Below, piece by piece: positions 13,421-53,132 of a DNA stretch of 58,281 bases. Where the stretch lies: assembly GCA_049667605.1 (NCBI GenBank), contig JBATIF010000204.1:1-58281 (forward strand), written 5' to 3'. The stretch comes from Gammaproteobacteria bacterium (GTDB lineage Bacteria; Pseudomonadota; Gammaproteobacteria; UBA9214). The stretch's first letter is position 1; each line of letters starts with the position of its first letter. The position numbers and the translations under genes were made by a program. The notes under the pieces are model-generated. The model was not told the origin of the DNA, made no database searches, and was given only the letters and a program-made list of their open reading frames with translations.

Positions 13421-13447
13421 GTGAGAAATTACACCAGGAGAATTTAC

Positions 13448-14539
13448 ATGACTATGAATGTTGAAAGCAGTGTCCGCGAGCGGTATTCAGAAGGTGCCAG
13501 GGAGCGGCAGGAAGCCCTGTGCTGCCCGGTGGATTATGACTCGGGGCTGCTGGCCATGCTGCCGGATGAGATAATCGAAAAGGACTATGGCTGCGGCGAC
13601 CCTTCACGCTACGTGCAGACAGGTGACGTCGTGCTTGACCTTGGTTCGGGCGGCGGCAAGATTTGCTACATGGCTGCACAGCTGGTCGGCAAGGGCGGCC
13701 AGGTGATCGGTGTCGACATGAATGATGACATGCTCGCACTGGCACGCAGGCACCAGCAGGAAATGGCAGCGAGGCTGTGCGATGATCGTGTTCGTTTTAT
13801 CAAGGGGCACATACAGGATCTTGCACTGGATATCGAGGCCCTGGAGAAATATCTGGCCACGAACCCGGTCCAAAGTCACAAGGACTTCGGTGCACTCAAG
13901 CACTGGGAAATGCGCCAGCGTAAGGAGAACCCGCTGATAGCGGATAATTCCGTTGACCTGGTGATTTCCAACTGCGTCCTTAACCTGGTATCTGACGAAG
14001 AAAAGCAACAGCTTGTCAGTGAGATATTCAGGGTCCTGAGACCGGGTGGCCGTGTAGCCATATCCGATATCATCAGCGATCAAACCATTCCGCTGTCGAT
14101 GAAGAATAATCCCGAGCTATGGAGCGGGTGTATTTCCGGCGCTTTCGAAGAATCGGAGTTCCTGCAGGTGTTTGCTGACTGCGGTTTCCATGCGCCCTGC
14201 TATGACAAGTGGGATGCCCGCCCCTGGCAGGTTGTAGAAGGGATTGAATTTCGTTCGGTGACACTGACGGCAGTAAAACCGGCCCAGCTGTCCGGCCGAC
14301 ACAATGAAGCCAGCGTGATATATCGGGGCCCTTTTGCCGAGGTTACTGATGACGCGGGTAACTGCTACCAGCGTGGTAAGCGGGTGCCGGTCAATGGCCA
14401 CACCCATGACCTGCTTACCGGGCATGCCTACAAGGGATATTTTATAAGCCTTTCTCCCGGGGCTGAAACAGCTGCCTGTTGTGAAGGCGAACAGCAAGCC
14501 GCCGCAGCGCAACAGTCTCGTGGCAATAGCTGCTGTTAA
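13448..14539 (+). CDS. arsM: arsenite S-adenosylmethionine methyltransferase ArsM-like
   Basis: The SAM motif I is present (VLDLGSGGGKICY). Cysteines sit in the expected ArsM contexts (CCPVDYD, DYGCGDP, SNCVLNLV, SGCISGA). ATG at 13448 follows AGGAGA. The ORF opens at GTG 13421. Confidence 0.8.
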   Translation: MTMNVESSVRERYSEGARERQEALCCPVDYDSGLLAMLPDEIIEKDYGCGDPSRYVQTGDVVLDLGSGGGKICYMAAQLVGKGGQVIGVDMNDDMLALARRHQQEMAARLCDDRVRFIKGHIQDLALDIEALEKYLATNPVQSHKDFGALKHWEMRQRKENPLIADNSVDLVISNCVLNLVSDEEKQQLVSEIFRVLRPGGRVAISDIISDQTIPLSMKNNPELWSGCISGAFEESEFLQVFADCGFHAPCYDKWDARPWQVVEGIEFRSVTLTAVKPAQLSGRHNEASVIYRGPFAEVTDDAGNCYQRGKRVPVNGHTHDLLTGHAYKGYFISLSPGAETAACCEGEQQAAAAQQSRGNSCC

Positions 14540-41756: not shown

Positions 41757-43148
41757 ATGCAACTTTCAAGAACAGAGCGTTTTCTGCAAATCTTCACGGA
41801 GGTGCGACCAGGTGAGGGCTCTACTGCGCTCCTCATGTTCGCCAATGTCTTTCTGATTCTCTGTGCCTACTATTTTATCAAGCCATTGAGAGAGGGCTGG
41901 ATTTCAATATCGGATATCTCGGGATTGTCAAAGATGGAGGTCAAGGCCTATTCCAGCTTTGCACAGAGTGTAGTCTTGCTGTTCATCGTCGGCTGGTATG
42001 CACGCCTGTCCGGGCGCTGGGACCGGTCCAGCTTGATTACACGGGCAACCCTGTTCTGTATTTCAAACATGGTCATCTTCTGGTTCCTCCAGCCAGGATT
42101 CTTTTTTGAGCAATTACCGGCTTCAGGTATCTTCTTCTATCTTTGGGTTGGTATGTTCGGAGTATTCGTTGTTGCCCAGTTCTGGACTTTCTGTGCCGAT
42201 GTCTATACCAACGAGTCCGGTAAGCGTCTGTTACCCCTGATCGCCATCGGCGCGACATCCGGGGCGGCGGCAGGTTCATGGATTGTCGATCTGCTGGTGG
42301 AAAACGGGATTATACCCACCGAGGGTTTGCTGCTGGTGGCGACAATACCGCTGTTTATTTCTATCATCTTGACTCGCATAGTTGATGCACGCCAACGCAG
42401 CATTATAAAAACCGTCGACAATATCCCCGGGGAGACCGCTGAAGTAGCGCTGGAGAAGGGTGCCGCCTTCCTGCTAAGTGGTGCCAGGCTTGTTCTTATC
42501 AGCCGATTTATGCTTGCAGCGGCATTGGTGACGCTATTGACCAACTGGGTGAATACCAATGGAGAGAACCTGTTGTTCCAGGTTATTCAGGCTAGCCTGA
42601 CGGAGCAGGCAGCCGCAGAGGGTGTGACTGCCCCGGAGGCAATCCGCATATTCACCCGCGACGGGACTACTGCATTCTACGGGAATTTTTATTTTTGGGT
42701 GAATGTCGTGGCATTGCTGCTGCAATCCCTGGTGGCCTCGCGACTACTGAAGTACGGTGGCTTTGCAGCGATACTGCTGATCCTGCCCGTAATCGCCCTG
42801 GTGTCGTACACTACGATGGCATTGCTGCCGATTCTGGTCATCGTGAAAATGATGAAGATAGCTGAAAATGCTACAGACTACTCGATTAACAACACTTCAC
42901 GCCATGTGCTCTGGTTGCCGATAAGTTCGGCCCTGAAATTTCGTGGCAAGCCGGCCATCGATACGCTCTATGTGCGCATTGGTGACGGACTTGCAGCATT
43001 GACCGTACTGGTTGGCGTGCAGTTCCTTTCGCTAGCAACCGAGCAGTTCTTTATGTTCAATGTATTCCTTGTGTTGCTATGGCTGGTCGCCGGTATCATA
43101 CTGGTACGAGAACACCGCAAGGCGTCGTCAGAAGAATCCATGGTGTAA
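41757..43148 (+). CDS. TLC-type (ATP/ADP translocase-like, Npt1/Npt2 family) polytopic transporter
   Basis: The 463-aa protein has about 11-12 TM segments. Its N-terminal block (FANVFLILCAYYFIKPLREG) resembles the conserved first helix of the TLC/COG3202 family. Confidence 0.6.
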   Translation: MQLSRTERFLQIFTEVRPGEGSTALLMFANVFLILCAYYFIKPLREGWISISDISGLSKMEVKAYSSFAQSVVLLFIVGWYARLSGRWDRSSLITRATLFCISNMVIFWFLQPGFFFEQLPASGIFFYLWVGMFGVFVVAQFWTFCADVYTNESGKRLLPLIAIGATSGAAAGSWIVDLLVENGIIPTEGLLLVATIPLFISIILTRIVDARQRSIIKTVDNIPGETAEVALEKGAAFLLSGARLVLISRFMLAAALVTLLTNWVNTNGENLLFQVIQASLTEQAAAEGVTAPEAIRIFTRDGTTAFYGNFYFWVNVVALLLQSLVASRLLKYGGFAAILLILPVIALVSYTTMALLPILVIVKMMKIAENATDYSINNTSRHVLWLPISSALKFRGKPAIDTLYVRIGDGLAALTVLVGVQFLSLATEQFFMFNVFLVLLWLVAGIILVREHRKASSEESMV

Positions 43149-43161
43149 TGCGGTATTGCAA

Positions 43162-43995
43162 CTATTTATCGAGCGTCAGAATTTTCTGTCGTAGTTGCTC
43201 ATTATGGGGTAGTGCGTAATCAAAGTTGTAAATGGATGATTCCCAGTGCCCATACATCGGGTTTGGCAGGATGATCCATTGACGCCCCCACCGGCCTTCA
43301 TAGTCCCGGGCCAACTTGCGGCGGATACCGGGAGCAGTTTTTGACCCATCCACAAAGTCTTCCAGGTTGTCACCGAGTAGCAACAGGATACGATAATTCT
43401 GAGCCACATGCCTACGTCGATCTGACTTTGACATTCCATTGCTTAAAAAAAGTCTGGATTCAACGGGTAGGGGTAATTTCAGTTGATGCAGGTTGCGCAA
43501 GGTGCATTCACGCAGCTTTTCCCTGCGTGCGCTGTAATAAAAGATAGCAACCCCCTTTTCTGCCGCATGATCAAGGAAAGTCTTTGCCCCCGTCACCGCA
43601 GGTGCATTGTTTTCCCTGCACCAGTCGGCAAAGCTGGAATGGGTATATTGCCCGAGTTGATTTATGATCAGGACTTCATAGGCGGTGTTATCCAGAACGG
43701 TTTCATCCAGATCGAGCATGATCGCGGGGGGCAGGTTGTTGTAGTCAGTGTCTTGCTCGAGGGCTGCGGACCATTGTGGGTCTGCAAGTGCCTTGTCGAG
43801 ATTGTATTTTGCAAGTTGCCATGCCTGACTGGTAACGCCGATGTATTCAGCAGAGGTCCGTTGCCACAAGGTGGCGTTGAGCATTTCGTGCGACCCTGTC
43901 CTGACTGCGGGGTTGATGCATCCGGTCAATGATAGCGACAGACATGCCGTTATGAGGCCCGTAGATAAGCCATATCGTTTGTTTGCCTTGTCCAT
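43162..43995 (-). CDS. 5'-nucleotidase / class C acid phosphatase, lipoprotein e(P4) family
   Basis: A lipobox is present (LSLTGC). The HAD motifs DLDETVLDNT and LLLGDNLEDF align closely with Haemophilus e(P4). Confidence 0.85.
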   Translation of the reverse strand: MDKANKRYGLSTGLITACLSLSLTGCINPAVRTGSHEMLNATLWQRTSAEYIGVTSQAWQLAKYNLDKALADPQWSAALEQDTDYNNLPPAIMLDLDETVLDNTAYEVLIINQLGQYTHSSFADWCRENNAPAVTGAKTFLDHAAEKGVAIFYYSARREKLRECTLRNLHQLKLPLPVESRLFLSNGMSKSDRRRHVAQNYRILLLLGDNLEDFVDGSKTAPGIRRKLARDYEGRWGRQWIILPNPMYGHWESSIYNFDYALPHNEQLRQKILTLDK

Positions 43996-44183
43996 CAGGT
44001 AATCGCTAAGTGAAAGAGCAACTGGTACAGGTTCAGCGAAGTTTACAAGGGCTCATCATACATCGCAAAACAATCAAAATGCTTTGACAATAGCCCGCTG
44101 CACAGAAGTACAGCCATAATTGGCTGTATGGGGGCAGGTAGTGGTTTCCTGGTAGCGTTTGCCGCGGGGGCAGATCCTGGAAG

Positions 44184-45080
44184 TTACTGGTTGGTGTTGC
44201 TCGCCAGCCTTTTGGGTACCATGAACTGGTGGATAGGCCTGATCATGCTTTTCAACCATTTGCCACCGTTCTTGTTTTCAGCCAAGCCCACGATGATGTA
44301 CTTATGGCCATCAGCCTCAACAATTGCACTGTCAGCATGCCAGCGGCTCCAGGAGCCGGACTTGCGAAAGATCTTTGCATCAGGAAAAGAAGCAAGGCCC
44401 TTTACGAACTTGTGATTGATACCCGGGTTACCCAGCATCGCTTTCATTTCACTTGTCAACTCGGGATTTGCCACGCGGCCGGTTTCCATCAGGTAGTACA
44501 ACCTTGCCGCCTGCATGGCAGTGGCTCCGTGAGAGAGGTTGTGCAGAGGGTCGCGTTTGTAGGCGGCGGATTTGCCATATTCCTTGCCAATCCAGAGTCC
44601 ACCATTTACTCGCTCGTCATACAGGTGAAATTTATCGTCTTGCAGGATTTCCAGCAACCGGTTTTTGCCAACGTGATTCAGCATGCGGGTTGCATCGGCG
44701 TTTGATGACTTTCTGATCATGCGGGTCAAGGAAGCTCGAGTGTCCTCATCCAGGACCATGTTGCCATGGTCGATCTCTACAAAAGCGCCCAGCAAGATTG
44801 CGATCTTCGGGAGGCTTGCTGCATAGAGCATCGTGTCCCCGTTGACAGAGGCCACCAGGGGCTCTTCCGGATCGGTAATATCAACCAGGGTGACACCCAG
44901 TTTTTTGTCACGCACAGCCTTATTGAGGCCCAGGTCTTCAAGGACACCTTCAAGTTGCACCTGAAGACCGTGGTCATAGCTCTCCCACAGGGTAGGGTAG
45001 CCATCCATACCGTCGGCGGAAACCTGGGCAGAAGCGAATATCGCCATGAGTGCAACAACGGTTGTACGCAGGTTGCTCAT
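44184..45080 (-). CDS. exported class A beta-lactamase-fold serine hydrolase
   Basis: A signal peptide is present (VVALMAIFASAQVSA). All three motifs are present: SxxK (SLPK), SxN (SSN) and KxG (KSG). ATG at 45080 is preceded by GGAG. The ORF is open to 45116. Confidence 0.75.
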   Translation of the reverse strand: MSNLRTTVVALMAIFASAQVSADGMDGYPTLWESYDHGLQVQLEGVLEDLGLNKAVRDKKLGVTLVDITDPEEPLVASVNGDTMLYAASLPKIAILLGAFVEIDHGNMVLDEDTRASLTRMIRKSSNADATRMLNHVGKNRLLEILQDDKFHLYDERVNGGLWIGKEYGKSAAYKRDPLHNLSHGATAMQAARLYYLMETGRVANPELTSEMKAMLGNPGINHKFVKGLASFPDAKIFRKSGSWSRWHADSAIVEADGHKYIIVGLAENKNGGKWLKSMIRPIHQFMVPKRLASNTNQ

Positions 45081-45188
45081 TATGACTCCAGAAATGGTTG
45101 TACGTGAGTTGCACATGTAAGCTAGGATTGTAACATTATTTACTGTTACGACCTAACCAAAGTCGGCTTGAATTATCATGGAAACAGG

Positions 45189-45202
45189 TGTGAATATTCA
45201 CA
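45189..45202. promoter_or_regulatory. perfect 14-bp palindrome TGTGAATATTCACA in a divergent promoter region (candidate operator)
   Basis: The sequence is self-complementary over all 14 nt. It lies in the AT-rich gap between the divergent hydrolase (start 45080) and the TLC-HEAT transporter (start 45425). Confidence 0.45.
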
Positions 45203-45424
45203 ATAATTTTCCCGCTAGCTCCACGAAACACTATTCTAAGATACTGAATAACATAATAAATATTCAATTACAAGCTGCATTTTTCATTAAATCACGGTCC
45301 CGGCCCAAATTGCAGCGTCAAGCCAACATTACGATTGCGCCGGGATTCATGATCGGGATGCCTGAGATGATACTGGCGTGAAACTCACCCTGAATGCCAG
45401 CAATAAAACGGTCCGCTACCAGCC

Positions 45425-47599
45425 ATGGTGAACGCCAGGCAGTCAGATTCCAGGGCTCTGCTGTTTGCGTTATTTGCAGCAACCACCATGATCGCACAGC
45501 AGGTCGCCGGCAAGGCAACCCGGGATGCCTTGTTTCTTTCTAATTTTGATGTAACCAATCTTCCCAAGATGGTAATCACGGCGGCATTTGTCTCCATGGG
45601 CGGCGTTATGCTGATGTCATGGCTGCTTTCGCACATTACGCCCGCGAAACTTGTCCCCGGCATATTCGGACTAAGCGCTATTTTGTTTATTGGCGAATGG
45701 GTAATACTCGGGTATCAACCGAACATCGCATCTGTCATTCTATATCTGCACATGGCCGTCTTTGGCGCTATCCTGATCAGCGGTTTCTGGTCGATCATCA
45801 ATGAACGTTTCGACCCGCATTCAGCAAAACAGCGGGTCGCCCGTATTGCTGCTGCGGCCACGCTTGGTGGTGTTATCGGCGGTATGCTCGCAGACACGGT
45901 CGCCACACAACTAAATGTACGCAGTATGTTGCTGTTTCTGAGCGGCCTGCACGTGATCTGCCTGATAGCCGTCATGGGAATTGGAACTCAAACCAGGGCA
46001 GCGCCGGTAGAGCAACATGTCAGGACCCGCTCCGCCTTCACGATCATTTCACACACCCCGTATCTGCAGTGGATGGCACTCCTGATGGTGCTGGTTGCAG
46101 TCATGGCGGCGCTGGTGGACTACGCGTTCAAGGCCGAAGCAGTTGCCCATTACAAGGATACAGAGTCACTGGTCGCATTCTTCGGATCATTTTATGCCTT
46201 TGTCGGGGTGCTGGGGTTTGTCTTGCAGACATTACTCGGTCGTCGCATTTTGCAGCGATTTGGTATCGGTGCCACGATTGCCATATTGCCTGCCGTGGTT
46301 GCCCTGTTTGGAGTTTTCGGAACGGCAGTTACGCATCTCTGGACGATGATCATGATGCGCGGCAGCCATGCCGTTTTTGTCACTTCCTTTTTCCGCTCCG
46401 CTTTTGAGCTTCTGTATACGCCATTACCCCCTCACAAGAAGCGTCCTACCAAGACCATCATTGATGTGGCGAGTGACCGGCTCGGTGACTTGATCGGCAG
46501 TGGTTTTATCCTGCTTTTGCTGTTTCTTCTGCCTGATCTGCCGACGGCCATTGTGGCCGCTTGTGCGGTGCTTGTCGCCATAGTCGCACTTTATGTGATT
46601 ACGCGTCTCAATCGTGGCTATATCAACCAGCTGGCAAGCAGCCTGCGCAAGGGTGTTGTGCAGATCGAGGAGGAAGACATTATCGATGCCACAACCCAGC
46701 ATATCCTGGCAGAGTCCAACGCGTATTCAGAAAGGGACTTCCTGCAAACAAAAATTGACGCCATGCAGGAACGCAAGACCGGCGAAGGATATTCCATTGA
46801 TGAAGTGGACGAGAGTGCATCCCTGGCGGACCTGATTGCCGATCTTTGCTCCAATGACACTAACCGCATACAGCATGCCCTGATCGCCTCTCTGGCCGAT
46901 ATCCGTCTCACACCCTACATGATCCCCCTGCTGGCTAATGATGACATTGCCGACGATGTACGCACAGAGTTACGCTGGCTGGTACCAAGAATTCCCGGGC
47001 AGTTAACGGATGCCTTGCTGGATCCTGATGTGCCAATGCTGGCACGACAACGATTGCCAGGTGTCCTCGAAGCCAGCCACAATCCACGTTCCATTGACGG
47101 GTTATTGCTGGGCATGATGGATGCGTCTTTTAACGTACGTTACAGTAGCGCCAGGGCACTGGCGCGCATGCGCTCAAGAAATGCCAACCTGAAAATTCCC
47201 AGCGAAACAATTTACACTGCAATTCATAAGGAACTTGATGTTTCACTGGATGAGTGGGAGGTGCCCGGCGAGGAACTGAATCTCGGCGATGAGCAGGTGG
47301 AAGACGCGGGAAGTTCTCGCATCAACCGCAACCTGGAACACGTGTTCACCTTGTTAGCGCTTACCCTCGACCCGGATGCCGTCCATATGTGCAAGCAAGC
47401 TGCATTCAGCAAGGACCTCAATCTGCGCGGTACCGCACTTGAATACCTTGAGAATGTTTTGCCGGCCGGACTTTATCAGGCCCTGGTAGAGCGACTCGGG
47501 CTCAGCGAGGAAGAGCGCAGTAGTTCACGCTCCTTGCGTGAAGTCATGAAAGAGCTGAAATCGGTTGTACAGAGCGCGGGGCCGCATTGGTCTGATTAA
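45425..47599 (+). CDS. TLC-type transporter fused to a C-terminal HEAT-repeat domain
   Basis: The N-terminal ~420 aa are polytopic, with the block VAGKATRDALFLSNF, the same pattern as the 41757 gene. The C-terminal ~300 aa are soluble with HEAT/PBS-lyase-like repeats (NVRYSSARALARM, LNLRGTALEYLENVLP). Confidence 0.62.
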   Translation: MVNARQSDSRALLFALFAATTMIAQQVAGKATRDALFLSNFDVTNLPKMVITAAFVSMGGVMLMSWLLSHITPAKLVPGIFGLSAILFIGEWVILGYQPNIASVILYLHMAVFGAILISGFWSIINERFDPHSAKQRVARIAAAATLGGVIGGMLADTVATQLNVRSMLLFLSGLHVICLIAVMGIGTQTRAAPVEQHVRTRSAFTIISHTPYLQWMALLMVLVAVMAALVDYAFKAEAVAHYKDTESLVAFFGSFYAFVGVLGFVLQTLLGRRILQRFGIGATIAILPAVVALFGVFGTAVTHLWTMIMMRGSHAVFVTSFFRSAFELLYTPLPPHKKRPTKTIIDVASDRLGDLIGSGFILLLLFLLPDLPTAIVAACAVLVAIVALYVITRLNRGYINQLASSLRKGVVQIEEEDIIDATTQHILAESNAYSERDFLQTKIDAMQERKTGEGYSIDEVDESASLADLIADLCSNDTNRIQHALIASLADIRLTPYMIPLLANDDIADDVRTELRWLVPRIPGQLTDALLDPDVPMLARQRLPGVLEASHNPRSIDGLLLGMMDASFNVRYSSARALARMRSRNANLKIPSETIYTAIHKELDVSLDEWEVPGEELNLGDEQVEDAGSSRINRNLEHVFTLLALTLDPDAVHMCKQAAFSKDLNLRGTALEYLENVLPAGLYQALVERLGLSEEERSSSRSLREVMKELKSVVQSAGPHWSD

Positions 47600-47680
47600 T
47601 CCTGTCGCAGCTTACTCCGGCTTATGCAAATATTTCCGTTCATGGCGATTGCGGCCTTATGGCCCCAAACAGGGAACCGG

Positions 47681-49057
47681 TTACCTGGAGATTGCCGCAT
47701 CGGGCTGCTCACCGACCGATGTATTCTCAGGTGTATCGTCAGGAGTGTCTTCAGGTGTGTCGTCCGGATCGACCTCGGCAGCCGGCTCCGATGATAATGA
47801 CGTATTGGCTCTTTGCATGATCCGGTGGATGCGTGTTCCCATGGTTTGATGGTCCACGGCCGAGTTCTTGCGCAGGACATTCGAGATCAGCGTAGCGATG
47901 TAATGCAGCGGGCGAGCTTCGTTGAAGCTTTCAATGATCGCGACCGAGTTCATGTAGTTCTTTTTGTTACCCATGTACTTGCCGCATTTGAAACCTTCTT
48001 CCTCCTGGCAGCTGTAGAGGGAACCGGATTTGAAATACACGGCCGAGTCCCGCAGTGCCGGGGCTGAGGCATAGCGAATACGCCGCTCGGTCATGTAGAG
48101 CAGGCGCTTCATCTCGCGGCTGGAAAACTCGTCCACCAGCCGGCCCTGTTCCATGCGCAGGGTGAATAACATCAGTTCCCGGGCCGTGCCGTAGCTGTTG
48201 CCGCCGCCGGCTACCTTGTTCTTGCCGGTGCGCGTAAAAAAGCTTCCTTGGCGCAAAAGGTTGATATCCAGACCGTTACGGGTAATCGGCTCGAAGAAGG
48301 TGGCCTGGAACAGTGCGGTGAGTTCCTTTCTCGGGGTTTCCTTGAAGAACCGCTGGATCTCCTCTTCAGGTGGCGGGTAGCTTTTGCCGTAATGCTTGAG
48401 CAACATGGCATCGCGCATGGTCATGGCAGCCGCGGCATTGGAACTGACGGACAGGGTCCAGTCGAGATATTCCCAGAGCGATCCGCGGTCACCATCCTTC
48501 ATGGTTCGCCGTGTCAGTTTTTGCGTCTCGACATCGAACAGGCGGATCTTGTGATGGTCCCAGTGACAGAATTCATCAGCGGTAATGTACGTGTTCTTCA
48601 GGATACCCCGGCGCTTTGCAAGGTCGTCCGGCCAGGCATCGGCGAGCGCCTGGAACAGGCCAAGTGCCACGACTATTTTGCCGACACTGCCGACATTCTG
48701 TTTGTAATCACCGCGATGCTCGGCATAGCGAGGATTTTCCGGGTCGCTCAAATCGAGTACGGCGATGCCGTAACGGCTGGCATTGTTTCCCAGCAAATTC
48801 AGGATTTCCCGATTCAACTCAGGGTCGGGGGCGGGAAGATCAATATCGGGGTAATTCAGCAGACGCAGGTCCACTTCTGCCGTTGAAAGCTGTGCGCCCG
48901 GAGGCTGCTTGCGACCGCGTATAATGCCTTCATTTTCGAGACGGGCGCCTTCTACCCGCCGGATACCGGTTTCCGCGTAACCATCCAGTGGATAGGCCGT
49001 CACCAGGGAAGGGATGCCGAGCACCAGCAAAAGCGGCACTGCCAGGTATTTAATCAT
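47681..49057 (-). CDS. exported class A beta-lactamase-fold serine hydrolase with acidic repeat tail
   Basis: A signal peptide is present (LLLVLGIPSLVTA). SVGK, SSN and KSG motifs are present. The C-terminal tail reads PDDTPEDTPDDTPENT. The start overlaps the upstream stop (ATGA). Confidence 0.75.
   Translation of the reverse strand: MIKYLAVPLLLVLGIPSLVTAYPLDGYAETGIRRVEGARLENEGIIRGRKQPPGAQLSTAEVDLRLLNYPDIDLPAPDPELNREILNLLGNNASRYGIAVLDLSDPENPRYAEHRGDYKQNVGSVGKIVVALGLFQALADAWPDDLAKRRGILKNTYITADEFCHWDHHKIRLFDVETQKLTRRTMKDGDRGSLWEYLDWTLSVSSNAAAAMTMRDAMLLKHYGKSYPPPEEEIQRFFKETPRKELTALFQATFFEPITRNGLDINLLRQGSFFTRTGKNKVAGGGNSYGTARELMLFTLRMEQGRLVDEFSSREMKRLLYMTERRIRYASAPALRDSAVYFKSGSLYSCQEEEGFKCGKYMGNKKNYMNSVAIIESFNEARPLHYIATLISNVLRKNSAVDHQTMGTRIHRIMQRANTSLSSEPAAEVDPDDTPEDTPDDTPENTSVGEQPDAAISR
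47729..47776. repeat. four imperfect 12-nt tandem units inside a CDS
   Basis: The units are AGGTGTATCGTC / AGGAGTGTCTTC / AGGTGTGTCGTC / CGGATCGACCTC. On the minus strand they encode the D(D/E)TP repeats. Confidence 0.8.
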
Positions 49058-51993
49058 CGTGGTATCTCCTGCATTGTTACATTCTGATCAAGACGGCCTG
49101 CCAGTGCCTTGTCCATGCTATTAAGGTAACTGCTGCCCCGGGCCTGCTTGCTTTCCAGGAACGGGCGTAATTGAAACAGGTGCAGTTTGCCGTTCAGAAA
49201 ACCGAATTCAACATCCGCTGGTGCCGGCTTGCCTTCATCATCCGTAATCGAGGGAAACTTTTGCGGCAGTTCCTTTGCAAACTGTATGAGCTGCCTGATC
49301 TCGCCCGGCTGTAACACCGTATCACTGCCGCTGGTCGGGACCTTCTCGACGCCACCGCTGGCTATCGGGTTGCGTCGCCATGGGGCAGTTGCCATTGCCA
49401 GTACCCGCACCGAGCCATCGCGCATATCGATGCGTAGGGATTCAGCCGACTGGCCATCGACCGCGCCACCGACCCCTTCATTGACGGCGACTGATAGCAC
49501 CGCGCGGTCACCCGTATCAATGTCCTGGGTCACCATAACGCCGGACTTGTCATTCGATACCGACTGCAGCAACAGCACGGCAGGGTAGACATGTTCCGGT
49601 GTATCCATGTGCGACTGCCGCCATGCAAAGGCGCGTGCCGTGAACGGTGATGCCCAGACCCGCGGGATGGCGTTGATGACGTTATCCACCCCGATTACAT
49701 TCGGCAGGGTCAGGTTCAGACCAGCGCCGGTAAAACCGGCAAGGTCTTCCACGTTGGTGTCAGACCGTACAAACACGCCATAGCTACCGGTACCGAAGGC
49801 CTGGTTCATCGCCTTGCGCAGTCCACTTCTGAACGTATCATCAAGCTTTGCCGATGCAATCCGTTTGTACACCTCGGCACGGAAGCGTTCGGTAAATTCC
49901 AGCCTTTGCGTTGAGTCCTCCGGCATTGTCTGCATTTTACGATACTGCTCGACCATCCATTCGAAGACAGTCTTGCCCGTACCATCGTAGGGCTTGTCCA
50001 GCACTGTTTCCCGGAACACGCCAAAAGGAATGGCTACACCCTGGGCCACGGCGTCAGGATAGGCGTGACGCAATTCACCGAGCTTTGCGGCCTTTGGGCC
50101 GACAACGCGTCCGGAGTCATCCGCACGCAGCATGTCCAGGTTAAGGAAGTCCTTGACGGACAGGTCGAGTTTCTCCAGATCCGGCCTGATGACAGCAGCG
50201 CCCGCCTGGTTGTCCTTGCCAAACACTGCATCCCAGTTGGCACCATCCGGACCCAGTTCAACCAGTCCCGCGGGGCTGACAGCCATCACCACGGCCTGGC
50301 CGTCATGCTTGCGTATGGATGGAATCAGTTCCTCGTCCACGCCCACGTTGGGTATACCCAGGTTGCGCGCCAGCAACTGAACATGCGACAGGGGATTGCC
50401 TTCACCGGCCGTCATGATGCCCGCAACCGGCGGAAGCTCGGAGATGGTTTCCGGCAACAGGTAGATACCATGTGCCTCAAATCCGGCATGTTCATCGAGG
50501 TCCGGGGTGGCATGCAGCACGCCGCGTGCCAGTCCCGGGTTGAGGGCGCGGAAGCCGACACCGATTTCCTTGCCAAAGAGTTTGTGCTCGACACCCGCCA
50601 GGCGGTTTGCATCCTGCAGCAGTCCATCGAGGATTTGCGAATAAAACAGCAGCGGGCTGCCACGTAACTGGTCCTGGATGAAAAGTAACGCCAGTGGTTC
50701 GATCTCGGCCAGCTTGTCCATGGATTCATAGAACTGGAAACGCAGGCCCTGGGTCCCCCAGCCGGGCACCCGCCCGAGGTAGCCGAGCGTTTTCATATAA
50801 TCTGCAAGCGAAATACTTGAACCGGCAAGTGAGTCAAGGGAAGCAAGCAATTCACCTTGACCCCTGCGGTTGATACTGCCGGTTCCATAGGCGGCGTTGA
50901 CGGTCGCCTTCAGCCACTCGACACGTTGATGTCGTGTTGCCTTTGGCAGTCTTGAACGCAGGTCTGCGCTGGCACTGAAATTCACAGTCTCAACCGCAAG
51001 GCCCAGGTCGAGTATCCGTAACCGGGCTGCTGCACTTTTTATCCTGGGTAGCACATCACGCAATTCGGCCAGCAGGCCGGCCGTCACCGCGTATTGGTGA
51101 TCGGCTGACGGGTCCTTATTCAGCTGCTGTGCGGCCGAGCGCAGGATCTTTTGCAACCAGGGGCCCGCGGAAAACACCTCGGCAGTTGCATTGAGCTGCT
51201 CGGGTAACGGGGCAGACTGGTAAACCCGGTCAATGTCACTGGCAAGGATTTCGTATTTTTTCCTGAGTGCCGGATCGCTGGTTCCAGCCGCGTAATCGCG
51301 AACCAGCTTTGCATCACTTGCTTCCGGGGTACCGTGGATCTTGCCGCGGATATCCTTGAAGCCCTTGTCCTCTTCTGACAGTGAAGCCGAGAACTGGCGG
51401 ACCTTCTGGACGGAGGCGGTGTCCTCGCCATGCGGCAACAAGCCCACACCGATGCGCAGGGCCGGGTAACGAAAACCAATCCAGACCGGGTCTGCCGCCA
51501 GGGTCAGCAACAGGTCCCGACCGCCGTTACGCTCGTCTTCTTCCTGGATGGCACCCCGGTAGAAGAGGGCACGACGCCATATCCAGCCATCGTCCATCCG
51601 TATCAGGAATTTTTCGATCAACAGCTGGTTATAGGCGTCGAGGAATTCAGGCGAATTTATGTCAACATCGGTTTTATACCCGGCCAGTAAATTTGCAATC
51701 AGGTAGCCCTCATCCCTCAGCTTCCTGGTCTTGTCGCTCCATGAACCATGCTGATGGCCGCCGCCATGTTCGACACAGGCATATTCCCTGGGTGGTAGTA
51801 TGGATCCGTCATTACAGAACCAGCGTAACTCCTTGAAAGGACCCCTTTCACGGACCTTCATTTCATTGATCCAGCGCCGGTGTTCGGTGTTGTCTCCAGC
51901 CGCGGCCGCAGTGTTATCCGATGAGGCGGGAGCGCCTGCTGATATCCAAATGCCGAAGGCGAACAATATTGTTTTTATTAATCGAATTTTCAT
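49054..51993 (-). CDS. PEP-utilising / ATP-grasp (PPDK_N-like) dikinase-family protein with N-terminal signal peptide
   Basis: The N-terminus reads MKIRLIKTILFAFGIWISAGAPASS. A ~470-aa domain of unknown function follows. Next comes a swivelling phosphohistidine motif (GIMTAGEGNPLSHVQLLARNLGIPNV). An ATP-grasp PEP/pyruvate-binding-like region follows (VGPKAAKLGEL, VRSDTNVEDLAGFTGAGLNLT, DVEFGF..GKLHLFQLRP). Confidence 0.72.
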   Translation of the reverse strand: MKIRLIKTILFAFGIWISAGAPASSDNTAAAAGDNTEHRRWINEMKVRERGPFKELRWFCNDGSILPPREYACVEHGGGHQHGSWSDKTRKLRDEGYLIANLLAGYKTDVDINSPEFLDAYNQLLIEKFLIRMDDGWIWRRALFYRGAIQEEDERNGGRDLLLTLAADPVWIGFRYPALRIGVGLLPHGEDTASVQKVRQFSASLSEEDKGFKDIRGKIHGTPEASDAKLVRDYAAGTSDPALRKKYEILASDIDRVYQSAPLPEQLNATAEVFSAGPWLQKILRSAAQQLNKDPSADHQYAVTAGLLAELRDVLPRIKSAAARLRILDLGLAVETVNFSASADLRSRLPKATRHQRVEWLKATVNAAYGTGSINRRGQGELLASLDSLAGSSISLADYMKTLGYLGRVPGWGTQGLRFQFYESMDKLAEIEPLALLFIQDQLRGSPLLFYSQILDGLLQDANRLAGVEHKLFGKEIGVGFRALNPGLARGVLHATPDLDEHAGFEAHGIYLLPETISELPPVAGIMTAGEGNPLSHVQLLARNLGIPNVGVDEELIPSIRKHDGQAVVMAVSPAGLVELGPDGANWDAVFGKDNQAGAAVIRPDLEKLDLSVKDFLNLDMLRADDSGRVVGPKAAKLGELRHAYPDAVAQGVAIPFGVFRETVLDKPYDGTGKTVFEWMVEQYRKMQTMPEDSTQRLEFTERFRAEVYKRIASAKLDDTFRSGLRKAMNQAFGTGSYGVFVRSDTNVEDLAGFTGAGLNLTLPNVIGVDNVINAIPRVWASPFTARAFAWRQSHMDTPEHVYPAVLLLQSVSNDKSGVMVTQDIDTGDRAVLSVAVNEGVGGAVDGQSAESLRIDMRDGSVRVLAMATAPWRRNPIASGGVEKVPTSGSDTVLQPGEIRQLIQFAKELPQKFPSITDDEGKPAPADVEFGFLNGKLHLFQLRPFLESKQARGSSYLNSMDKALAGRLDQNVTMQEIPR

Positions 51994-52048
51994 ACTCTTT
52001 TCTCAGGGAAGGATGATGACTGGATCAGGTCGCAATGCAGAGGATAGC

Positions 52049-52079
52049 AAAAACAGGGGGCCGGCAGCATCAGGCCGGC
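52049..52079 (-). terminator. possible rho-independent terminator
   Basis: On the minus strand, GCCGGC-CTGATGCT-GCCGGC is followed by CCCCTGTTTTT. The T-run is not immediately adjacent to the stem. Confidence 0.4.
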
Positions 52080-52143
52080 ATATATACTGGAAATGCCGGT
52101 CAGGCAATCCCGCGACCTGGCACACCAAGGATTCGGGCCCGGT

Positions 52144-52872
52144 CTAAAAAGTCCGAATGCCCCTGTTCAGCGGTCGTTGTTGGAACACCAGCACCTGACC
52201 CGAGGCATCCTGAAGAAGTAACCGGGTCTGGTTTCTGGCGAAAGTATACTGCGTAACGGTCCCCGTTTGTTTTGCAAGCAGGTTAACAATATTGTCTTTT
52301 ATCCGCACCGTGCCACTGATTACCGTCCGTCTGTTCTGTAGTCGGAATTGATTTCCCCTGACCTCCAGGATCTCGCCTGTATTTCCATACCAGCGTCCAT
52401 TGAGCAAGGCGCTGGAAGAATACTGGCCATGCGGGTTGGCGGCACCATATCCCGCCGGATAGCCGTTGCGCGCTATTCCAAAAGGGGTCGTATAGGCGGG
52501 AGACATGAACGGGTTGTACGGCGTGCTCCACGGATTGCCCGCCAGGGCCGGGGACCAGGGCGAGAGTCCCATACTGTTGAGAGGTAATCCACCATAGCCG
52601 GACCAGGGGTTCATGCCGCTCATACCCCATGGGCTCACACCGGTCATGCCGCCCAGCATGGGCAGGGTCGTCATGCCGAGACCAAGGGAATTACCGCCGC
52701 CCCAGCCGAGGTTACCAGTGCCATCACCCGCAACGTCCGACATGGCTCTCATCATGCTCAGCATCATGCGAAACATAAGGCTGAACATGTCACCGTAATC
52801 GTCAGCCGCGACCGGCCGTGCAAGCAACAAGGCACAAATCAGCAGGTAGATGGCGGGTCTGTTTCTTTTCAT
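52144..52872 (-). CDS. secreted low-complexity Met/Gly/Pro/Trp-rich protein
   Basis: A signal peptide is present (LLICALLLARPVAA). A Met-rich segment follows (MFSLMFRMMLSMMRAM). Four xPW repeats sit in a G/M/S/P-rich stretch. The last ~90 aa form a beta-rich, ordinary-composition C-terminal domain. Confidence 0.6.
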   Translation of the reverse strand: MKRNRPAIYLLICALLLARPVAADDYGDMFSLMFRMMLSMMRAMSDVAGDGTGNLGWGGGNSLGLGMTTLPMLGGMTGVSPWGMSGMNPWSGYGGLPLNSMGLSPWSPALAGNPWSTPYNPFMSPAYTTPFGIARNGYPAGYGAANPHGQYSSSALLNGRWYGNTGEILEVRGNQFRLQNRRTVISGTVRIKDNIVNLLAKQTGTVTQYTFARNQTRLLLQDASGQVLVFQQRPLNRGIRTF

Positions 52873-53132
52873 TAAACAAAGATGCCTTTGGCTGGTTCTT
52901 CTTTAGGGTAAATATAACCAGACTGCTTAACGACATAAATATTGTAATATTACTACATATTGTGACATGCGACCTAAGACATCCTACATTTAGTAGCTGC
53001 AAAGCCACCGGCGTCGGTCAGTGATTCTCATGGCAGGGCGAATTAGATGCTACGGCACGGGAAAAGTTGCTGGCAGGCAAATAATGGCACTCATGTTACA
53101 CTTTGCCAGATAACCCTATTTCACTGAAACAC

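What the first reader, a model, noticed from the sequence alone, without database searches (positions are those of the whole stretch)
41757..52872. 11-kb cluster between serS and metH: TLC-type transporters, exported hydrolases and an exported dikinase-like enzyme (candidate undescribed envelope system)
Seven consecutive genes show no housekeeping logic:
- TLC-type transporter (41757-43148, +)
- e(P4)-type lipoprotein 5'-nucleotidase (43162-43995, -)
- class-A beta-lactamase-fold hydrolase (44184-45080, -)
- TLC-type transporter fused to HEAT repeats (45425-47599, +)
- second beta-lactamase-fold hydrolase (47681-49057, -), start/stop-overlapped (ATGA) with the next gene
- 979-aa PEP-utilising/ATP-grasp protein carrying a signal peptide (49054-51993, -)
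- secreted Met/Gly/Pro/Trp-rich protein (52144-52872, -)

Five of the seven products have a signal peptide or lipobox. The other two belong to the transporter family that exchanges ATP/ADP/NAD in obligate intracellular bacteria and plastids.

The transporter-plus-hydrolase pairing appears twice, which suggests a duplicated module.

Inference: these genes may form a machinery that supplies or processes nucleotides, or a phosphorylated envelope component, outside the cytoplasm. In that scheme a nucleotide carrier would feed an ATP-grasp enzyme located where ATP is normally absent. I know of no described system with this composition.
Basis: partly seen in the sequence, partly recalled or inferred. 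Interest (0 to 1): 0.75.

Follow-up and report, generated by a model that had tools for sequence, protein, structure and literature searches.

The report
Exported dikinase plus nucleotide-carrier envelope module
Four of the seven flagged genes form a module conserved from Gammaproteobacteria to Bacteroidota and not described in the searched literature: an exported ATP-using phosphotransferase, two exported serine hydrolases and an ATP/ADP-translocase-type membrane carrier, which together suggest deliberate ATP use in the supposedly ATP-free periplasm.

Summary
All seven ORFs exist as described. Comparative genomics reduces the proposed seven-gene system to four core genes.

- **g6:** 979-aa exported His-swivel/ATP-grasp enzyme
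- **g5:** exported beta-lactamase-fold hydrolase, ATGA-coupled to g6
- **g3:** exported PBP-A-like hydrolase
- **g4 or g1:** an NTT/TLC-family carrier, either HEAT-fused (g4) or HEAT-less (g1)

In 85 related loci, g5 lies directly downstream of g6 in 53 of 58 loci with room. Among 40 loci with at least 8 kb of flank, g3 is present in 28 and a TLC-like carrier in 30. Six of six Bacteroidota loci, five of them named cultured species (Lacinutrix, Formosa, Muricauda, Nonlabens, Portibacter), carry all four genes in unrelated flanks.

Signal peptides, two invariant cysteines, the catalytic His537 and the ATP-grasp motifs persist down to 30% identity. The 470-aa N-domain has no known fold relative.

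The e(P4)-type phosphatase (g2) is a lineage-specific accessory. g7 is an unrelated neighbour. The "duplicated transporter-plus-hydrolase module" idea is not supported.

Best reading (about 0.45): a periplasmic "X, water dikinase" fed with ATP by the NTT-type carrier. The substrate is unknown. No paper describing the module was found.

The parts
49054..51993 (-). g6, core: exported 979-aa His-swivel/ATP-grasp 'X, water dikinase'-like enzyme. Layout: signal peptide (residues 1-24), novel helical N-domain (about 30-470), phosphohistidine domain (about 480-600), PPDK_N ATP-grasp (630-953).
   Evidence: Pfam and NCBIfam. PDB sequence match to PEPS, with LSH aligning to the catalytic TSH. More than 450 clusters at 50% identity have the same about 970-aa architecture. 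Invariant residues in A1/A2. AF2 models.
51922..51993 (-). Signal peptide of g6: MKIRLIKTILFAFGIWISAGAPAS.
   Evidence: Read from the sequence. All 20 diverse homologues inspected (30-51% identity) have an N-terminal signal-like segment. The strict heuristic passes 288 of 355 family members; the listed failures were mostly truncated starts or AQ-type sites.
51775..51816 (-). Cys60...Cys73, the only two cysteines in g6 (WFCxDG...C motif). Putative periplasmic disulfide.
   Evidence: Cysteine count is 2 in 979 residues. Both are invariant in A1, A2 and A4.
50383..50385 (-). Codon of His537, the predicted phospho-carrier histidine (GNPLSHVQLLARNLGIPN).
   Evidence: S536-H537 is invariant in 46 sequences at 30-49% identity. 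It aligns to the TSH motif of PEP synthase 8a8e.
47681..49057 (-). g5, core: exported 458-aa beta-lactamase-fold serine hydrolase, translationally coupled to g6 (ATGA).
   Evidence: Pfam. ATGA overlap. Directly downstream of g6 in 53 of 58 loci. Invariant SVGK / SxN / KSG plus two invariant Cys. No PDB sequence relative.
44184..45080 (-). g3, core: exported about 300-aa PBP-A / class-A beta-lactamase-like serine hydrolase.
   Evidence: Pfam 2e-14. Invariant SLPK / SxN / KSG. Weak profile hit to PBP-A Tll2115. Present in 28 of 40 loci with at least 8 kb flank and in 6 of 6 Bacteroidota loci. Ancient paralogue of g5.
45425..47599 (+). g4, core: NTT/TLC-family carrier fused to cytoplasmic HEAT repeats. 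Orthologue of the single carrier in the Bacteroidota modules.
   Evidence: Pfam TLC plus weak MFS_1. HEAT_2. Best BLAST partner of the Bacteroidota TLC-HEAT proteins, including the HEAT part.
41757..43148 (+). g1: HEAT-less NTT/TLC-family carrier, a paralogue of g4. It is the only carrier in many gammaproteobacterial versions of the module.
   Evidence: Profile hits to solved NTTs at 2e-21 and 1e-19. 13 of 17 orthologues hit PF03219. Named ATP:ADP antiporter or Npt1/Npt2 by sources. Two of three independently chosen homologues sit beside g6/g5.
43162..43995 (-). g2, lineage-specific accessory: class C acid phosphatase / e(P4)-type lipoprotein, a probable periplasmic nucleotidase.
   Evidence: Pfam and TIGR01533. 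Lipobox and DDDD motifs in the sequence. Present in 12 of 40 loci. Always within 3 kb of a carrier when both are present and often adjacent to one. Its gene overlaps the carrier gene by 10 nt in L093.
52060..52079 (-). Terminator-like GC hairpin with a T-run between g7 and g6. Likely upstream boundary of the g6-g5 operon.

Best explanation
The region holds a conserved four-component extracytoplasmic module.

**g6** is Sec-exported and is a swivelling-histidine phosphotransferase of the PEP-synthase / glucan-water-dikinase mechanistic class. The proposed chemistry is ATP + E-His -> E-His~P + AMP + Pi, followed by transfer of the phosphoryl group to an acceptor bound by a novel 470-aa helical N-domain.

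**The carrier** is needed because the enzyme sits where ATP is normally absent. The co-conserved inner-membrane NTT/TLC-family carrier (g4, with a cytoplasmic HEAT domain; g1 is a HEAT-less paralogue) is proposed to deliver cytoplasmic ATP to the periplasm, and possibly to retrieve spent nucleotide or Pi.

**g5 and g3**, the two exported serine hydrolases of the beta-lactamase/PBP fold, act on the same unknown substrate or product. g5 is translationally coupled to g6 and may be physically associated with it.

**g2**, in this lineage, is an e(P4)-type lipoprotein nucleotidase that would dispose of or recycle the AMP produced.

**Shown:** gene linkage across phyla, export signals, intact catalytic motifs, and family membership of the carriers.

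**Inferred:** ATP as the transported species, the direction of transport, the phosphoryl acceptor, and the order of the hydrolase and kinase steps.
For: **Linkage**
- g5 is directly downstream of g6 in 53 of 58 loci.
- With at least 8 kb of flank, g5 is present in 37, g3 in 28 and a TLC-like carrier in 30 of 40 loci.
- metH and serS synteny is lost below about 65% g6 identity.
- Among 743 ORFs in 85 loci, only these five families recur.
- All four genes are present in 6 of 6 Bacteroidota loci, with different flanks and one rearranged order.
- Reverse test: two of three carrier homologues chosen without regard to g6 lie next to g6/g5.

**Export**
- g6, g5 and g3 carry signal peptides in both phyla.
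- g6 has only two Cys, both invariant. g5 has an invariant Cys pair.

**Catalysis**
- His537 and the GPKAA / VRSDTNxEDL / ExGF...QxRP ATP-grasp motifs are invariant at 30% identity.
- Foldseek matches the ATP-grasp domain to RPH and PEPS at about 1e-12.

**Carrier**
- The orthologue profile matches only NTT structures in the PDB, at 2e-21.

**Nucleotide link**
- The e(P4)-type phosphatase is embedded in the module, adjacent to the carrier, and overlaps it in L093.
Against: - No experiment supports any step.
- NTT-HEAT and g1-type carriers have no characterised member (PMC5381601), so ATP is assumed by family analogy.
- The dikinase product is AMP. From general knowledge, classical NTTs exchange ATP for ADP, so the counter-substrate is unexplained.
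- ATP in the periplasm could leak through porins.
- 10 of 40 loci with at least 8 kb of flank, and one of three carrier loci, lack the partner within the sampled flank.
- The window's own g1 has no Pfam hit.
- The roles of the two hydrolases are not explained by any specific chemistry.
- Signal peptides were judged by a home-made heuristic and by eye, not by SignalP.
Confidence: 0.45

Rival explanations
1. Periplasmic salvage or catabolic pathway with import. The hydrolases and g6 convert an external compound into a phosphorylated or nucleotide-like product, and the NTT-family carrier imports that product, or imports scavenged external nucleotides. The carrier does not export ATP. The phosphoryl donor for g6 would come from another source.
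For: All characterised NTTs work physiologically as importers (family knowledge; PMC5381601). An e(P4)-type nucleotidase, classically part of nucleotide or NAD salvage, is embedded in the module. The hosts are marine and sediment heterotrophs that scavenge dissolved organics.
Against: g6 keeps every ATP-grasp and phosphohistidine motif, so it still needs a nucleotide triphosphate outside the cytoplasm, and no other supplier is co-conserved. Dephosphorylation by e(P4) would destroy a nucleotide cargo. No known NTT carries non-nucleotide phosphoesters.
Confidence: 0.2
2. Intrinsic antibiotic or xenobiotic inactivation cluster. Two periplasmic beta-lactamases and a rifampin-phosphotransferase-like kinase each inactivate toxins independently, and the carrier is an efflux or supply accessory.
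For: The closest structural relatives of the g6 ATP-grasp domain are rifampin phosphotransferases (5hv1, 1e-12). The NCBIfam rph model matches at 7.8e-23. g3 and g5 have intact SxxK / SxN / KSG motifs.
Against: The rph score is 80.7 bits against a cutoff of 999, the domain order differs, and the rifampin-binding domain is absent. g5 has no PDB relative, and g3 only a weak PBP-A hit. The module sits in core chromosome contexts without mobile elements and is conserved across phyla with fixed g6-g5 coupling. There were no PADLOC hits. Independent resistance genes would not keep a four-gene association through rearrangements.
Confidence: 0.1
3. Envelope (peptidoglycan) remodelling machine. The PBP-like hydrolases cut or acylate with stem peptides, and g6 uses ATP to phosphorylate or activate a muropeptide or envelope polymer, for example activating a carboxylate for re-ligation. 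This is a sub-case of the best explanation with a specific substrate.
For: g3 is nearest to PBP-A, a DD-peptidase-like protein. Both hydrolases belong to the penicillin-binding fold. All named members come from diderm (Gram-negative) phyla. PigC/RedH relatives of g6 use phosphoryl activation for condensation (NCBIfam hits).
Against: The PBP-A hit is weak (5e-4, 38 residues). No peptidoglycan-binding domains (LysM, SPOR, PG_binding) were detected. No peptidoglycan synthesis genes recur in the neighbourhoods.
Confidence: 0.15
4. The N-terminal hydrophobic segment of g6 is not an export signal (mis-called start or membrane tether with a cytoplasmic catalytic part). g6 would then be an ordinary cytoplasmic phosphotransferase, and the neighbourhood a loose metabolic cluster.
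For: No SignalP or experimental topology is available. About 19% of family members fail my strict heuristic.
Against: The positive charges precede a 13-residue hydrophobic core followed by APA-S, a signal-peptide geometry too short for a transmembrane helix. All 20 diverse sequences inspected show the same layout, and the listed failures were mostly 5'-truncated gene calls. Two invariant Cys in 979 residues fit an oxidising compartment. Its operon partner g5 is also exported.
Confidence: 0.05

Closest known systems
NTT/TLC nucleotide transporters (Pfam PF03219, TC 2.A.12; Chlamydia/Rickettsia Npt/Tlc and plastid NTT1; structures 9j3n, 9j3j)
   Same: g1 and g4 belong to this family by profile. 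Shared signature stretches include FW.F..(D/E)......KR and GK.AID.
   Different: The hosts are free-living bacteria, not energy parasites or plastids. The carriers are genetically tied to exported enzymes. The proposed direction is outward. No substrate is known.
NTT-HEAT fusion proteins (Major, Embley and Williams 2017, PMC5381601)
   Same: g4 and the Bacteroidota orthologues have the NTT domain followed by C-terminal HEAT repeats. That paper reports the architecture as widespread in bacteria and functionally uncharacterised.
   Different: In the passages I read, that paper does not describe these neighbours. It mentions only a nearby cNMP-binding domain gene. Here the fusion is one component of a fixed four-gene module with an exported dikinase-like enzyme. 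Membership of the published monophyletic clade was not tested phylogenetically.
Alpha-glucan, water dikinase / phosphoglucan, water dikinase (plant GWD/PWD)
   Same: The domain order is the same: substrate-binding N-terminal region, then phosphohistidine domain, then C-terminal PPDK_N nucleotide-binding domain (GWD order from general knowledge). The implied chemistry is also the same (ATP + X + H2O -> AMP + X-P + Pi).
   Different: There are no CBM45/CBM20 starch-binding modules. The N-domain is a helical fold with no PDB relative. The protein is exported rather than stromal or cytosolic.
PEP synthase / PPDK and rifampin phosphotransferase (RPH)
   Same: g6 has the ATP-grasp fold and motifs and a catalytic His on a mobile domain.
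   Different: It lacks the PEP/pyruvate TIM-barrel and the rifampin-binding domain. The domain order is permuted. It carries a signal peptide. Database names such as 'phosphoenolpyruvate synthase' are therefore misannotations.
PBP-A (Tll2115) / class A beta-lactamases
   Same: The fold and the SxxK, SxN and KSG motifs are present in g3 and g5.
   Different: The relationship is very remote. g5 has about 100 extra residues and no PDB sequence match. Neither protein reached any NCBIfam model at E below 0.01.
Haemophilus e(P4) class C acid phosphatase (NMN/5'-nucleotidase lipoprotein)
   Same: g2 has the Pfam family match, a lipobox and both aspartate motifs.
   Different: It scores below the TIGR01533 equivalog cutoff (199.5 against 216). 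It sits inside this module next to an NTT-type carrier rather than in an NAD-salvage context.
Periplasmic ATP-dependent DNA ligase LigE (from my own knowledge, not tested here)
   Same: It is a precedent for a signal-peptide-bearing enzyme that needs ATP outside the cytoplasm.
   Different: It is an unrelated fold and has no dedicated nucleotide carrier described alongside it.

Membership tests
NTT/TLC nucleotide transporter family (PF03219) | Significant match to the family profile or to solved members | tested here: met
   g4: PF03219 at 52.5 bits (cutoff 21), but only over residues 189-392. g1: no hit alone, but its orthologue profile hits 9j3n and 9j3j at 2.4e-21 and 1e-19 over about full length, with no other PDB protein at E below 1. 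13 of 17 orthologues hit PF03219.
NTT/TLC nucleotide transporter family (PF03219) | About 12 transmembrane helices with cytoplasmic termini | tested here: inconclusive
   A crude hydropathy scan finds 9 strong segments in each of g1 and g4. No dedicated topology predictor was available.
NTT/TLC nucleotide transporter family (PF03219) | Transport of nucleotides (ATP/ADP exchange, NTP or NAD import) | not testable with these tools
   This needs uptake assays in E. coli or proteoliposomes.
NTT/TLC nucleotide transporter family (PF03219) | Conserved charged residues required for transport in AtNTT1 (K155, E245, E385, K527; recalled from the literature) | tested here: inconclusive
   The HMM alignment shows the FW.F..(E/D) and GK.AID stretches conserved (K398 and D402 of g1 are invariant). 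I could not fix the residue numbering against AtNTT1, and the structure paper was not in the library.
NTT-HEAT fusion clade (Major et al. 2017) | NTT domain with C-terminal HEAT repeats | tested here: met
   g4: TLC plus HEAT_2 at 4.2e-5 (24.2 bits, under the 27.7 cutoff). Lacinutrix orthologue: HEAT_2 at 2.2e-14.
NTT-HEAT fusion clade (Major et al. 2017) | Monophyly with the published clade | not tested
   No reference sequences from that study were available.
PEP synthase / PPDK | PPDK_N ATP-grasp nucleotide-binding domain | tested here: met
   PF01326 at 1.2e-25, residues 630-953. Foldseek to PEPS 2ols at 1.7e-11.
PEP synthase / PPDK | Mobile phosphohistidine domain with catalytic His | tested here: met
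   PF00391 at 4.2e-4 (20.3 bits, under the 23.1 cutoff). LSH537 aligns with TSH of 8a8e. S536-H537 is invariant.
PEP synthase / PPDK | C-terminal PEP/pyruvate-binding TIM barrel (PF02896) and the order ATP-grasp, then His, then TIM | tested here: not met
   There is no PF02896 hit. The order is novel N-domain, then His, then ATP-grasp. All NCBIfam PEPS models score 10-fold below their cutoffs. g6 is therefore not a PEP synthase.
Glucan, water dikinase (GWD/PWD) | His domain upstream of a C-terminal nucleotide-binding domain | tested here: met
   Residues 512-556, then 630-953.
Glucan, water dikinase (GWD/PWD) | N-terminal starch-binding modules (CBM45/CBM20) | tested here: not met
   There was no Pfam hit in residues 30-500 even at E below 5. 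The confident helical model has no PDB fold match.
Rifampin phosphotransferase | Full-length match to the RPH equivalog, including the rifampin-binding domain | tested here: not met
   NF041857 scores 80.7 bits against a cutoff of 999. Only the ATP-grasp part aligns.
Class A beta-lactamase / PBP-A fold serine hydrolases | SxxK, SxN and K(T/S)G active-site motifs in the right order | tested here: met
   g5: S124-VG-K127, S205-x-N207, K343-S-G345. g3: S89-LP-K92, S125-x-N127, K240-S-G242. All are invariant across phyla.
Class A beta-lactamase / PBP-A fold serine hydrolases | Beta-lactam hydrolysis or penicillin binding | not testable with these tools
   This needs nitrocefin or Bocillin assays.
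e(P4) class C acid phosphatase | Lipoprotein signal and the two DDDD-superfamily motifs | tested here: met
   LSLTGC lipobox; IMLDLDETVLDNT and LLLLGDNLEDF motifs. PF03767 at 129.6 bits.
e(P4) class C acid phosphatase | Score above the TIGR01533 equivalog cutoff | tested here: not met
   199.5 bits against a cutoff of 216.05. g2 is a family member but not a certified equivalog.

The most novel reading that the evidence does not exclude
Free-living diderm bacteria of at least two phyla run a dedicated periplasmic ATP economy. An NTT-type carrier, previously known only from energy parasites and plastids, works outward to supply ATP to an exported swivelling-histidine dikinase. That enzyme, together with two PBP-like hydrolases, phosphorylates or activates an envelope or external substrate. 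This would assign a first physiological role to the widespread NTT-HEAT proteins and contradict the rule that the periplasm has no ATP-driven chemistry.
Probability: 0.4. Interest if true: 0.92.

Novelty: categorically new. Interest (0 to 1): 0.8.

Why it matters
**The textbook assumption.** Periplasmic processes are taught to be ATP-independent, which is why envelope biogenesis relies on trans-envelope machines, pre-activated donors or the proton-motive force. A widely conserved, Sec-exported enzyme with a complete ATP-grasp and phosphohistidine apparatus challenges that assumption directly. So does its genetic linkage to a member of the only known ATP/ADP-translocase family of bacteria.

**An open question about NTT proteins.** Since 2017 it has been unclear why free-living bacteria keep NTT and NTT-HEAT proteins (PMC5381601). 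This module offers a concrete, testable answer.

**A new protein family.** The g6 family has more than 450 clusters at 50% identity, an N-domain with no known fold, and misleading names ("phosphoenolpyruvate synthase").

**Tractability.** The module occurs in cultured marine flavobacteria with complete genomes (Lacinutrix sp. WUR7, Formosa sediminum, Nonlabens, Muricauda), so genetics and biochemistry are feasible.

Tried and rejected
1. **Structural clue to the g6 substrate.** The full-length AF2 model (pLDDT 69) matched only ATP-grasp proteins. A dedicated N-domain model (pLDDT 87.5) found no PDB match at E <= 0.001. Pfam at E < 5 gave nothing.
2. **Closest solved relatives of the hydrolases.** g5 has none. 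g3 has only a weak PBP-A hit.
3. **Extra conserved partners.** All-vs-all clustering of 743 neighbouring ORFs found none. Occasional neighbours (ABC transporter, gamma-glutamyltranspeptidase, amidohydrolase, Na+/H+ exchanger, APH kinase, His_Phos_1, PliI/DUF3011) are each lineage-specific.
4. **Regulatory clues.** There were no Rfam families in the 58-kb window. Promoter-like sites were at the shuffled expectation (8 found, 8.6 expected) and terminator-like sites only slightly above it (18 found, 12.0 ± 3.6 expected). No convincing shared operator was found.
5. **Defence-system reading.** No PADLOC hits.
6. **Literature.** Eight successful searches on NTT-HEAT, periplasmic ATP or kinases, exported dikinases and the gene combination found no description of the module. 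The NTT structure paper could not be retrieved, so residue-level substrate-site comparison was dropped.
7. **Recent duplication idea.** Rejected.
8. **Wasted scan.** Breadth had to come from the metagenome scan and exact-protein look-ups instead.

Full report
**1. Observation**

The seven ORFs are present exactly as listed. Base composition is unremarkable: GC is 0.50-0.58 across the cluster against 0.49-0.60 for the whole window. The rest of the window is ordinary chromosome, including mfd, aconitase, purB and mnmA by Pfam, plus a rarA/crcB/serS/metH frame labelled by inspection.

Profile scans give these results.
- g2: Acid_phosphat_B at 1.7e-37. The e(P4) model TIGR01533 scores 199.5 bits, just under its 216 cutoff.
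- g3: Beta-lactamase2 at 2e-14.
- g4: TLC at 4.6e-14 over residues 189-392, plus weak MFS_1.
- g5: Beta-lactamase2 at 5e-6.
- g6: a PEP-utilizers mobile domain (residues 512-556) followed by PPDK_N (residues 630-953, 1.2e-25).
- g1 and g7: nothing.

The C-terminus of g4 matches HEAT_2 at 4e-5, and its Lacinutrix orthologue matches at 2e-14.

g1 scores no Pfam hit on its own, but it is a real NTT relative.
- A 17-member orthologue profile hits only the two solved NTT carriers in the PDB (9j3n at 2.4e-21, 9j3j at 1e-19), over nearly the whole length.
- 13 of 17 orthologues hit PF03219.
- IMG and NCBI name the homologues ATP:ADP antiporter or Npt1/Npt2.

The ATGA overlap between g6 and g5 is real. 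g2, g3, g5, g6 and g7 have Sec or lipoprotein-type N-termini.

**2. Is it a system?**

I collected 85 loci encoding g6 relatives at 45-90% identity from reference MAGs and metagenomes. I mapped the window proteins onto them with tblastn.

g5 lies directly downstream of g6 on the same strand, with a gap under 300 bp, in 53 of the 58 loci that have at least 1.5 kb of room.

Presence among the 40 loci with at least 8 kb of total flank:

| Gene | Loci (of 40) |
|---|---|
| g5 | 37 |
| any TLC-like carrier | 30 |
| g3 | 28 |
| g2 | 12 |
| g4-type carrier | 10 |
| g7 | 8 |
| metH | 8 |
| serS | 3 |

Below 65% g6 identity the serS/metH frame, g7 and nearly all g2 and g4-type copies disappear. g5, g3 and a carrier remain.

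An all-vs-all clustering of 743 ORFs from these loci found only the g6, g5, g3, TLC and g2 families recurring. Every other family occurs in nine loci or fewer. The sporadic neighbours are heterogeneous.

A search of 1.8 billion cluster representatives shows that g6 belongs to a large family with a constant length of about 970 aa. It has 453 clusters at E < 1e-30, with full-length matches down to 31% identity.

Seeding a second search with a 31%-identical member reached cultured Bacteroidota. I inspected six loci:
- Lacinutrix sp. WUR7
- Muricauda sp. MAR_2010_75
- Portibacter marinus
- Formosa sediminum
- Nonlabens sp.
- one metagenomic contig

In all six the same four genes sit together:
- a PPDK_N protein of about 965 aa;
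- a Beta-lactamase2 protein of 404-430 aa, immediately or closely downstream;
- a TLC/MFS-HEAT protein of 890-944 aa;
- a Beta-lactamase2 protein of 300-334 aa.

The flanks are mostly unrelated (Lacinutrix and Formosa share neighbouring acetyl-CoA carboxylase genes), and one locus has a rearranged gene order.

Two lie beside g6/g5 (one of these also has g3) together with an e(P4)-type gene. One stands alone within 10 kb on either side.

The core is therefore g6 + g5 + g3 + one NTT-family carrier.

**3. Anatomy of the parts**

*g6.* The N-terminus is MKIRLIKTILFAFGIWISAGAPA|SS. It has basic residues, a 13-residue hydrophobic core and an AxA-like cleavage site.
- All 20 diverse homologues I read (30-51% identity) have the same layout.
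- A deliberately strict heuristic passes 288 of 355 family members. The listed failures were mostly truncated gene starts or Bacteroidota AQ-type sites.

The mature protein has exactly two cysteines, C60 and C73. Both are invariant in every alignment, as expected for a disulfide in an oxidising compartment.

S536-H537 is invariant and aligns with the catalytic TSH of PEP synthase. The GPKAA, VRSDTNxEDL and ExGF...QxRP ATP-grasp motifs are also invariant.

The domain order is N-domain, then His, then ATP-grasp. This is the order found in the glucan, water dikinases, not in PEPS/PPDK/RPH. There is no PEP/pyruvate TIM barrel, so the database name "phosphoenolpyruvate synthase" is wrong.

The N-domain (residues 30-470) models confidently (pLDDT 87.5, pTM 0.86) as a small beta unit plus a large helical bundle. 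It has no PDB fold relative: the best TM-score is 0.17 and no hit reaches E <= 0.001.

*g5 and g3.*
- Both keep SxxK, SxN and KSG in every orthologue, and both carry signal peptides in both phyla.
- g5 also has an invariant Cys pair and a conserved mature N-terminus, YP(L/I)DGY..TGI(R/K)R.
- They are ancient paralogues: hhalign probability 98.3%, 23% identity, with g5 carrying an insertion of about 100 residues.
- g3 is weakly nearest to cyanobacterial PBP-A. g5 has no solved relative.

*Carriers.* The Bacteroidota TLC-HEAT proteins match g4 best, including the HEAT part, and match g1 less well. g1 and g4 share 27-31% identity over short blocks. g4 is therefore the ancestral component, and g1 is a HEAT-less paralogue that is the sole carrier in many Gammaproteobacteria.

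*g2.* It has a lipobox and both class-C phosphatase motifs. When present it lies inside the module, and often next to the g1-type carrier. Its gene overlaps the carrier gene by 10 nt in L093.

*g7.* It has no family, travels only with metH synteny, and is separated from g6 by a GC hairpin with a T-run. I do not count it as part of the module.

**4. Mechanism**

*Shown:*
- A nucleotide-dependent swivelling-histidine phosphotransferase is exported.
- It is co-inherited with two exported serine hydrolases.
- It is co-inherited with a member of the nucleotide-translocase family.

*Inferred:*
- g6 catalyses ATP + X + H2O -> AMP + Pi + X-P, the chemistry of all characterised members of this enzyme class.
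- g6 therefore needs ATP outside the cytoplasm.
- The only co-conserved candidate supplier is the NTT-type carrier.
- NTTs are reversible exchangers (family knowledge). In a respiring free-living cell the nucleotide gradient favours ATP exit.
- The e(P4)-type nucleotidase in this lineage fits removal or recycling of the AMP by-product.

*Unresolved:*
- the phosphoryl acceptor;
- the role and order of the hydrolases;
- the counter-substrate, because classical NTTs take ADP and not AMP;
- how ATP loss through porins is limited;
- what the cytoplasmic HEAT domain does.

I put 0.9 on the four genes being one functional unit and 0.85 on g6 being extracytoplasmic. I put about 0.45 on the full ATP-supply model. 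Rival readings are listed separately: import or salvage, antibiotic inactivation, a peptidoglycan-specific variant, and mis-called topology.

**5. Comparison with the known**

NTT-HEAT fusions were catalogued as widespread in bacteria and functionally unknown (PMC5381601). In the passages I read, the only genomic neighbour that paper mentions is a cNMP-binding domain gene.

Literature searches found no description of this module. They covered:
- NTT-HEAT proteins;
- periplasmic ATP or periplasmic kinases;
- exported PEP-utilising enzymes;
- the specific gene combination.

The library lacks many subscription papers, so absence of a hit is not proof of novelty. Each gene is a remote member of a known superfamily, but the assembly and the exported location of a PPDK-class enzyme have no counterpart I could find.

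**6. Verdict**

- Novelty is high.
- Interest is 0.8.

The window probably comes from an uncultured sediment gammaproteobacterium. Its closest relatives are MAGs labelled Gammaproteobacteria, Thiohalobacterales or Thiogranum.

Noticed in passing
window 12455-14539 (+): A radical-SAM protein with DUF3641 is immediately followed by a SAM-dependent methyltransferase. From my own knowledge, this pair resembles ArsS/ArsM-type organoarsenical biosynthesis genes (Pfam).
   Followed up: no
window 52144-52872 (-): g7 is a secreted Met/Gly/Pro/Trp-rich 242-aa protein with no family hit. Its C-terminal about 90 residues are less biased in composition. It is conserved at 43-58% identity only in close relatives, always between metH and g6. 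A terminator-like hairpin (52060-52079) separates it from g6. Function unknown.
   Followed up: partly
window 45046-45116 (-): The 5' end of g3 contains two 35-nt copies, 36 nt apart and 74% identical. The alternative upstream start (45116) therefore encodes a near-duplicate of the first 12 codons (MCNSRTTISGVI / MSNLRTTVVALM). This looks like a small tandem duplication at the start of the gene.
   Followed up: no
window 47727-47768 (-): A 12-nt periodic repeat encodes the acidic (D/E)DTP repeat tail (DDTPEDTPDDTPE) at the C-terminus of g5. tblastn matches to relatives mostly end before this tail.
   Followed up: no
L003 19619-20830 and L005 19617-20921: Some relatives carry an additional g5 paralogue (49-50% identity to g5) between g3 and the e(P4) gene. 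The hydrolase set has therefore expanded in some lineages.
   Followed up: no
L093 9051-11404: The e(P4)-type phosphatase gene overlaps the start of the g1-type carrier gene by 10 nt on the same strand, which implies translational coupling of nucleotidase and carrier.
   Followed up: partly
L031-L033 upstream of g6; L072, L086, L089 upstream of g6: A gamma-glutamyltranspeptidase lies upstream of g6 in three loci. An ABC_membrane + ABC_tran half-transporter lies upstream in three loci, including two flavobacterial genomes; L083 has an ABC ATPase without a membrane domain there. These may be lineage-specific accessories or coincidence.
   Followed up: partly
window 1-58281: No Rfam family reaches its gathering score anywhere in the 58-kb window. 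This includes no fluoride riboswitch ahead of crcB (39656).
   Followed up: no
window 45243-45264 and 52922-52943: A 22-nt AT-rich motif (ACTGNNTAAC...ATAAATATT, 77% identical) occurs in the g3/g4 divergent intergenic region and again in the g7/metH intergenic region. It could be a shared operator or chance.
   Followed up: no
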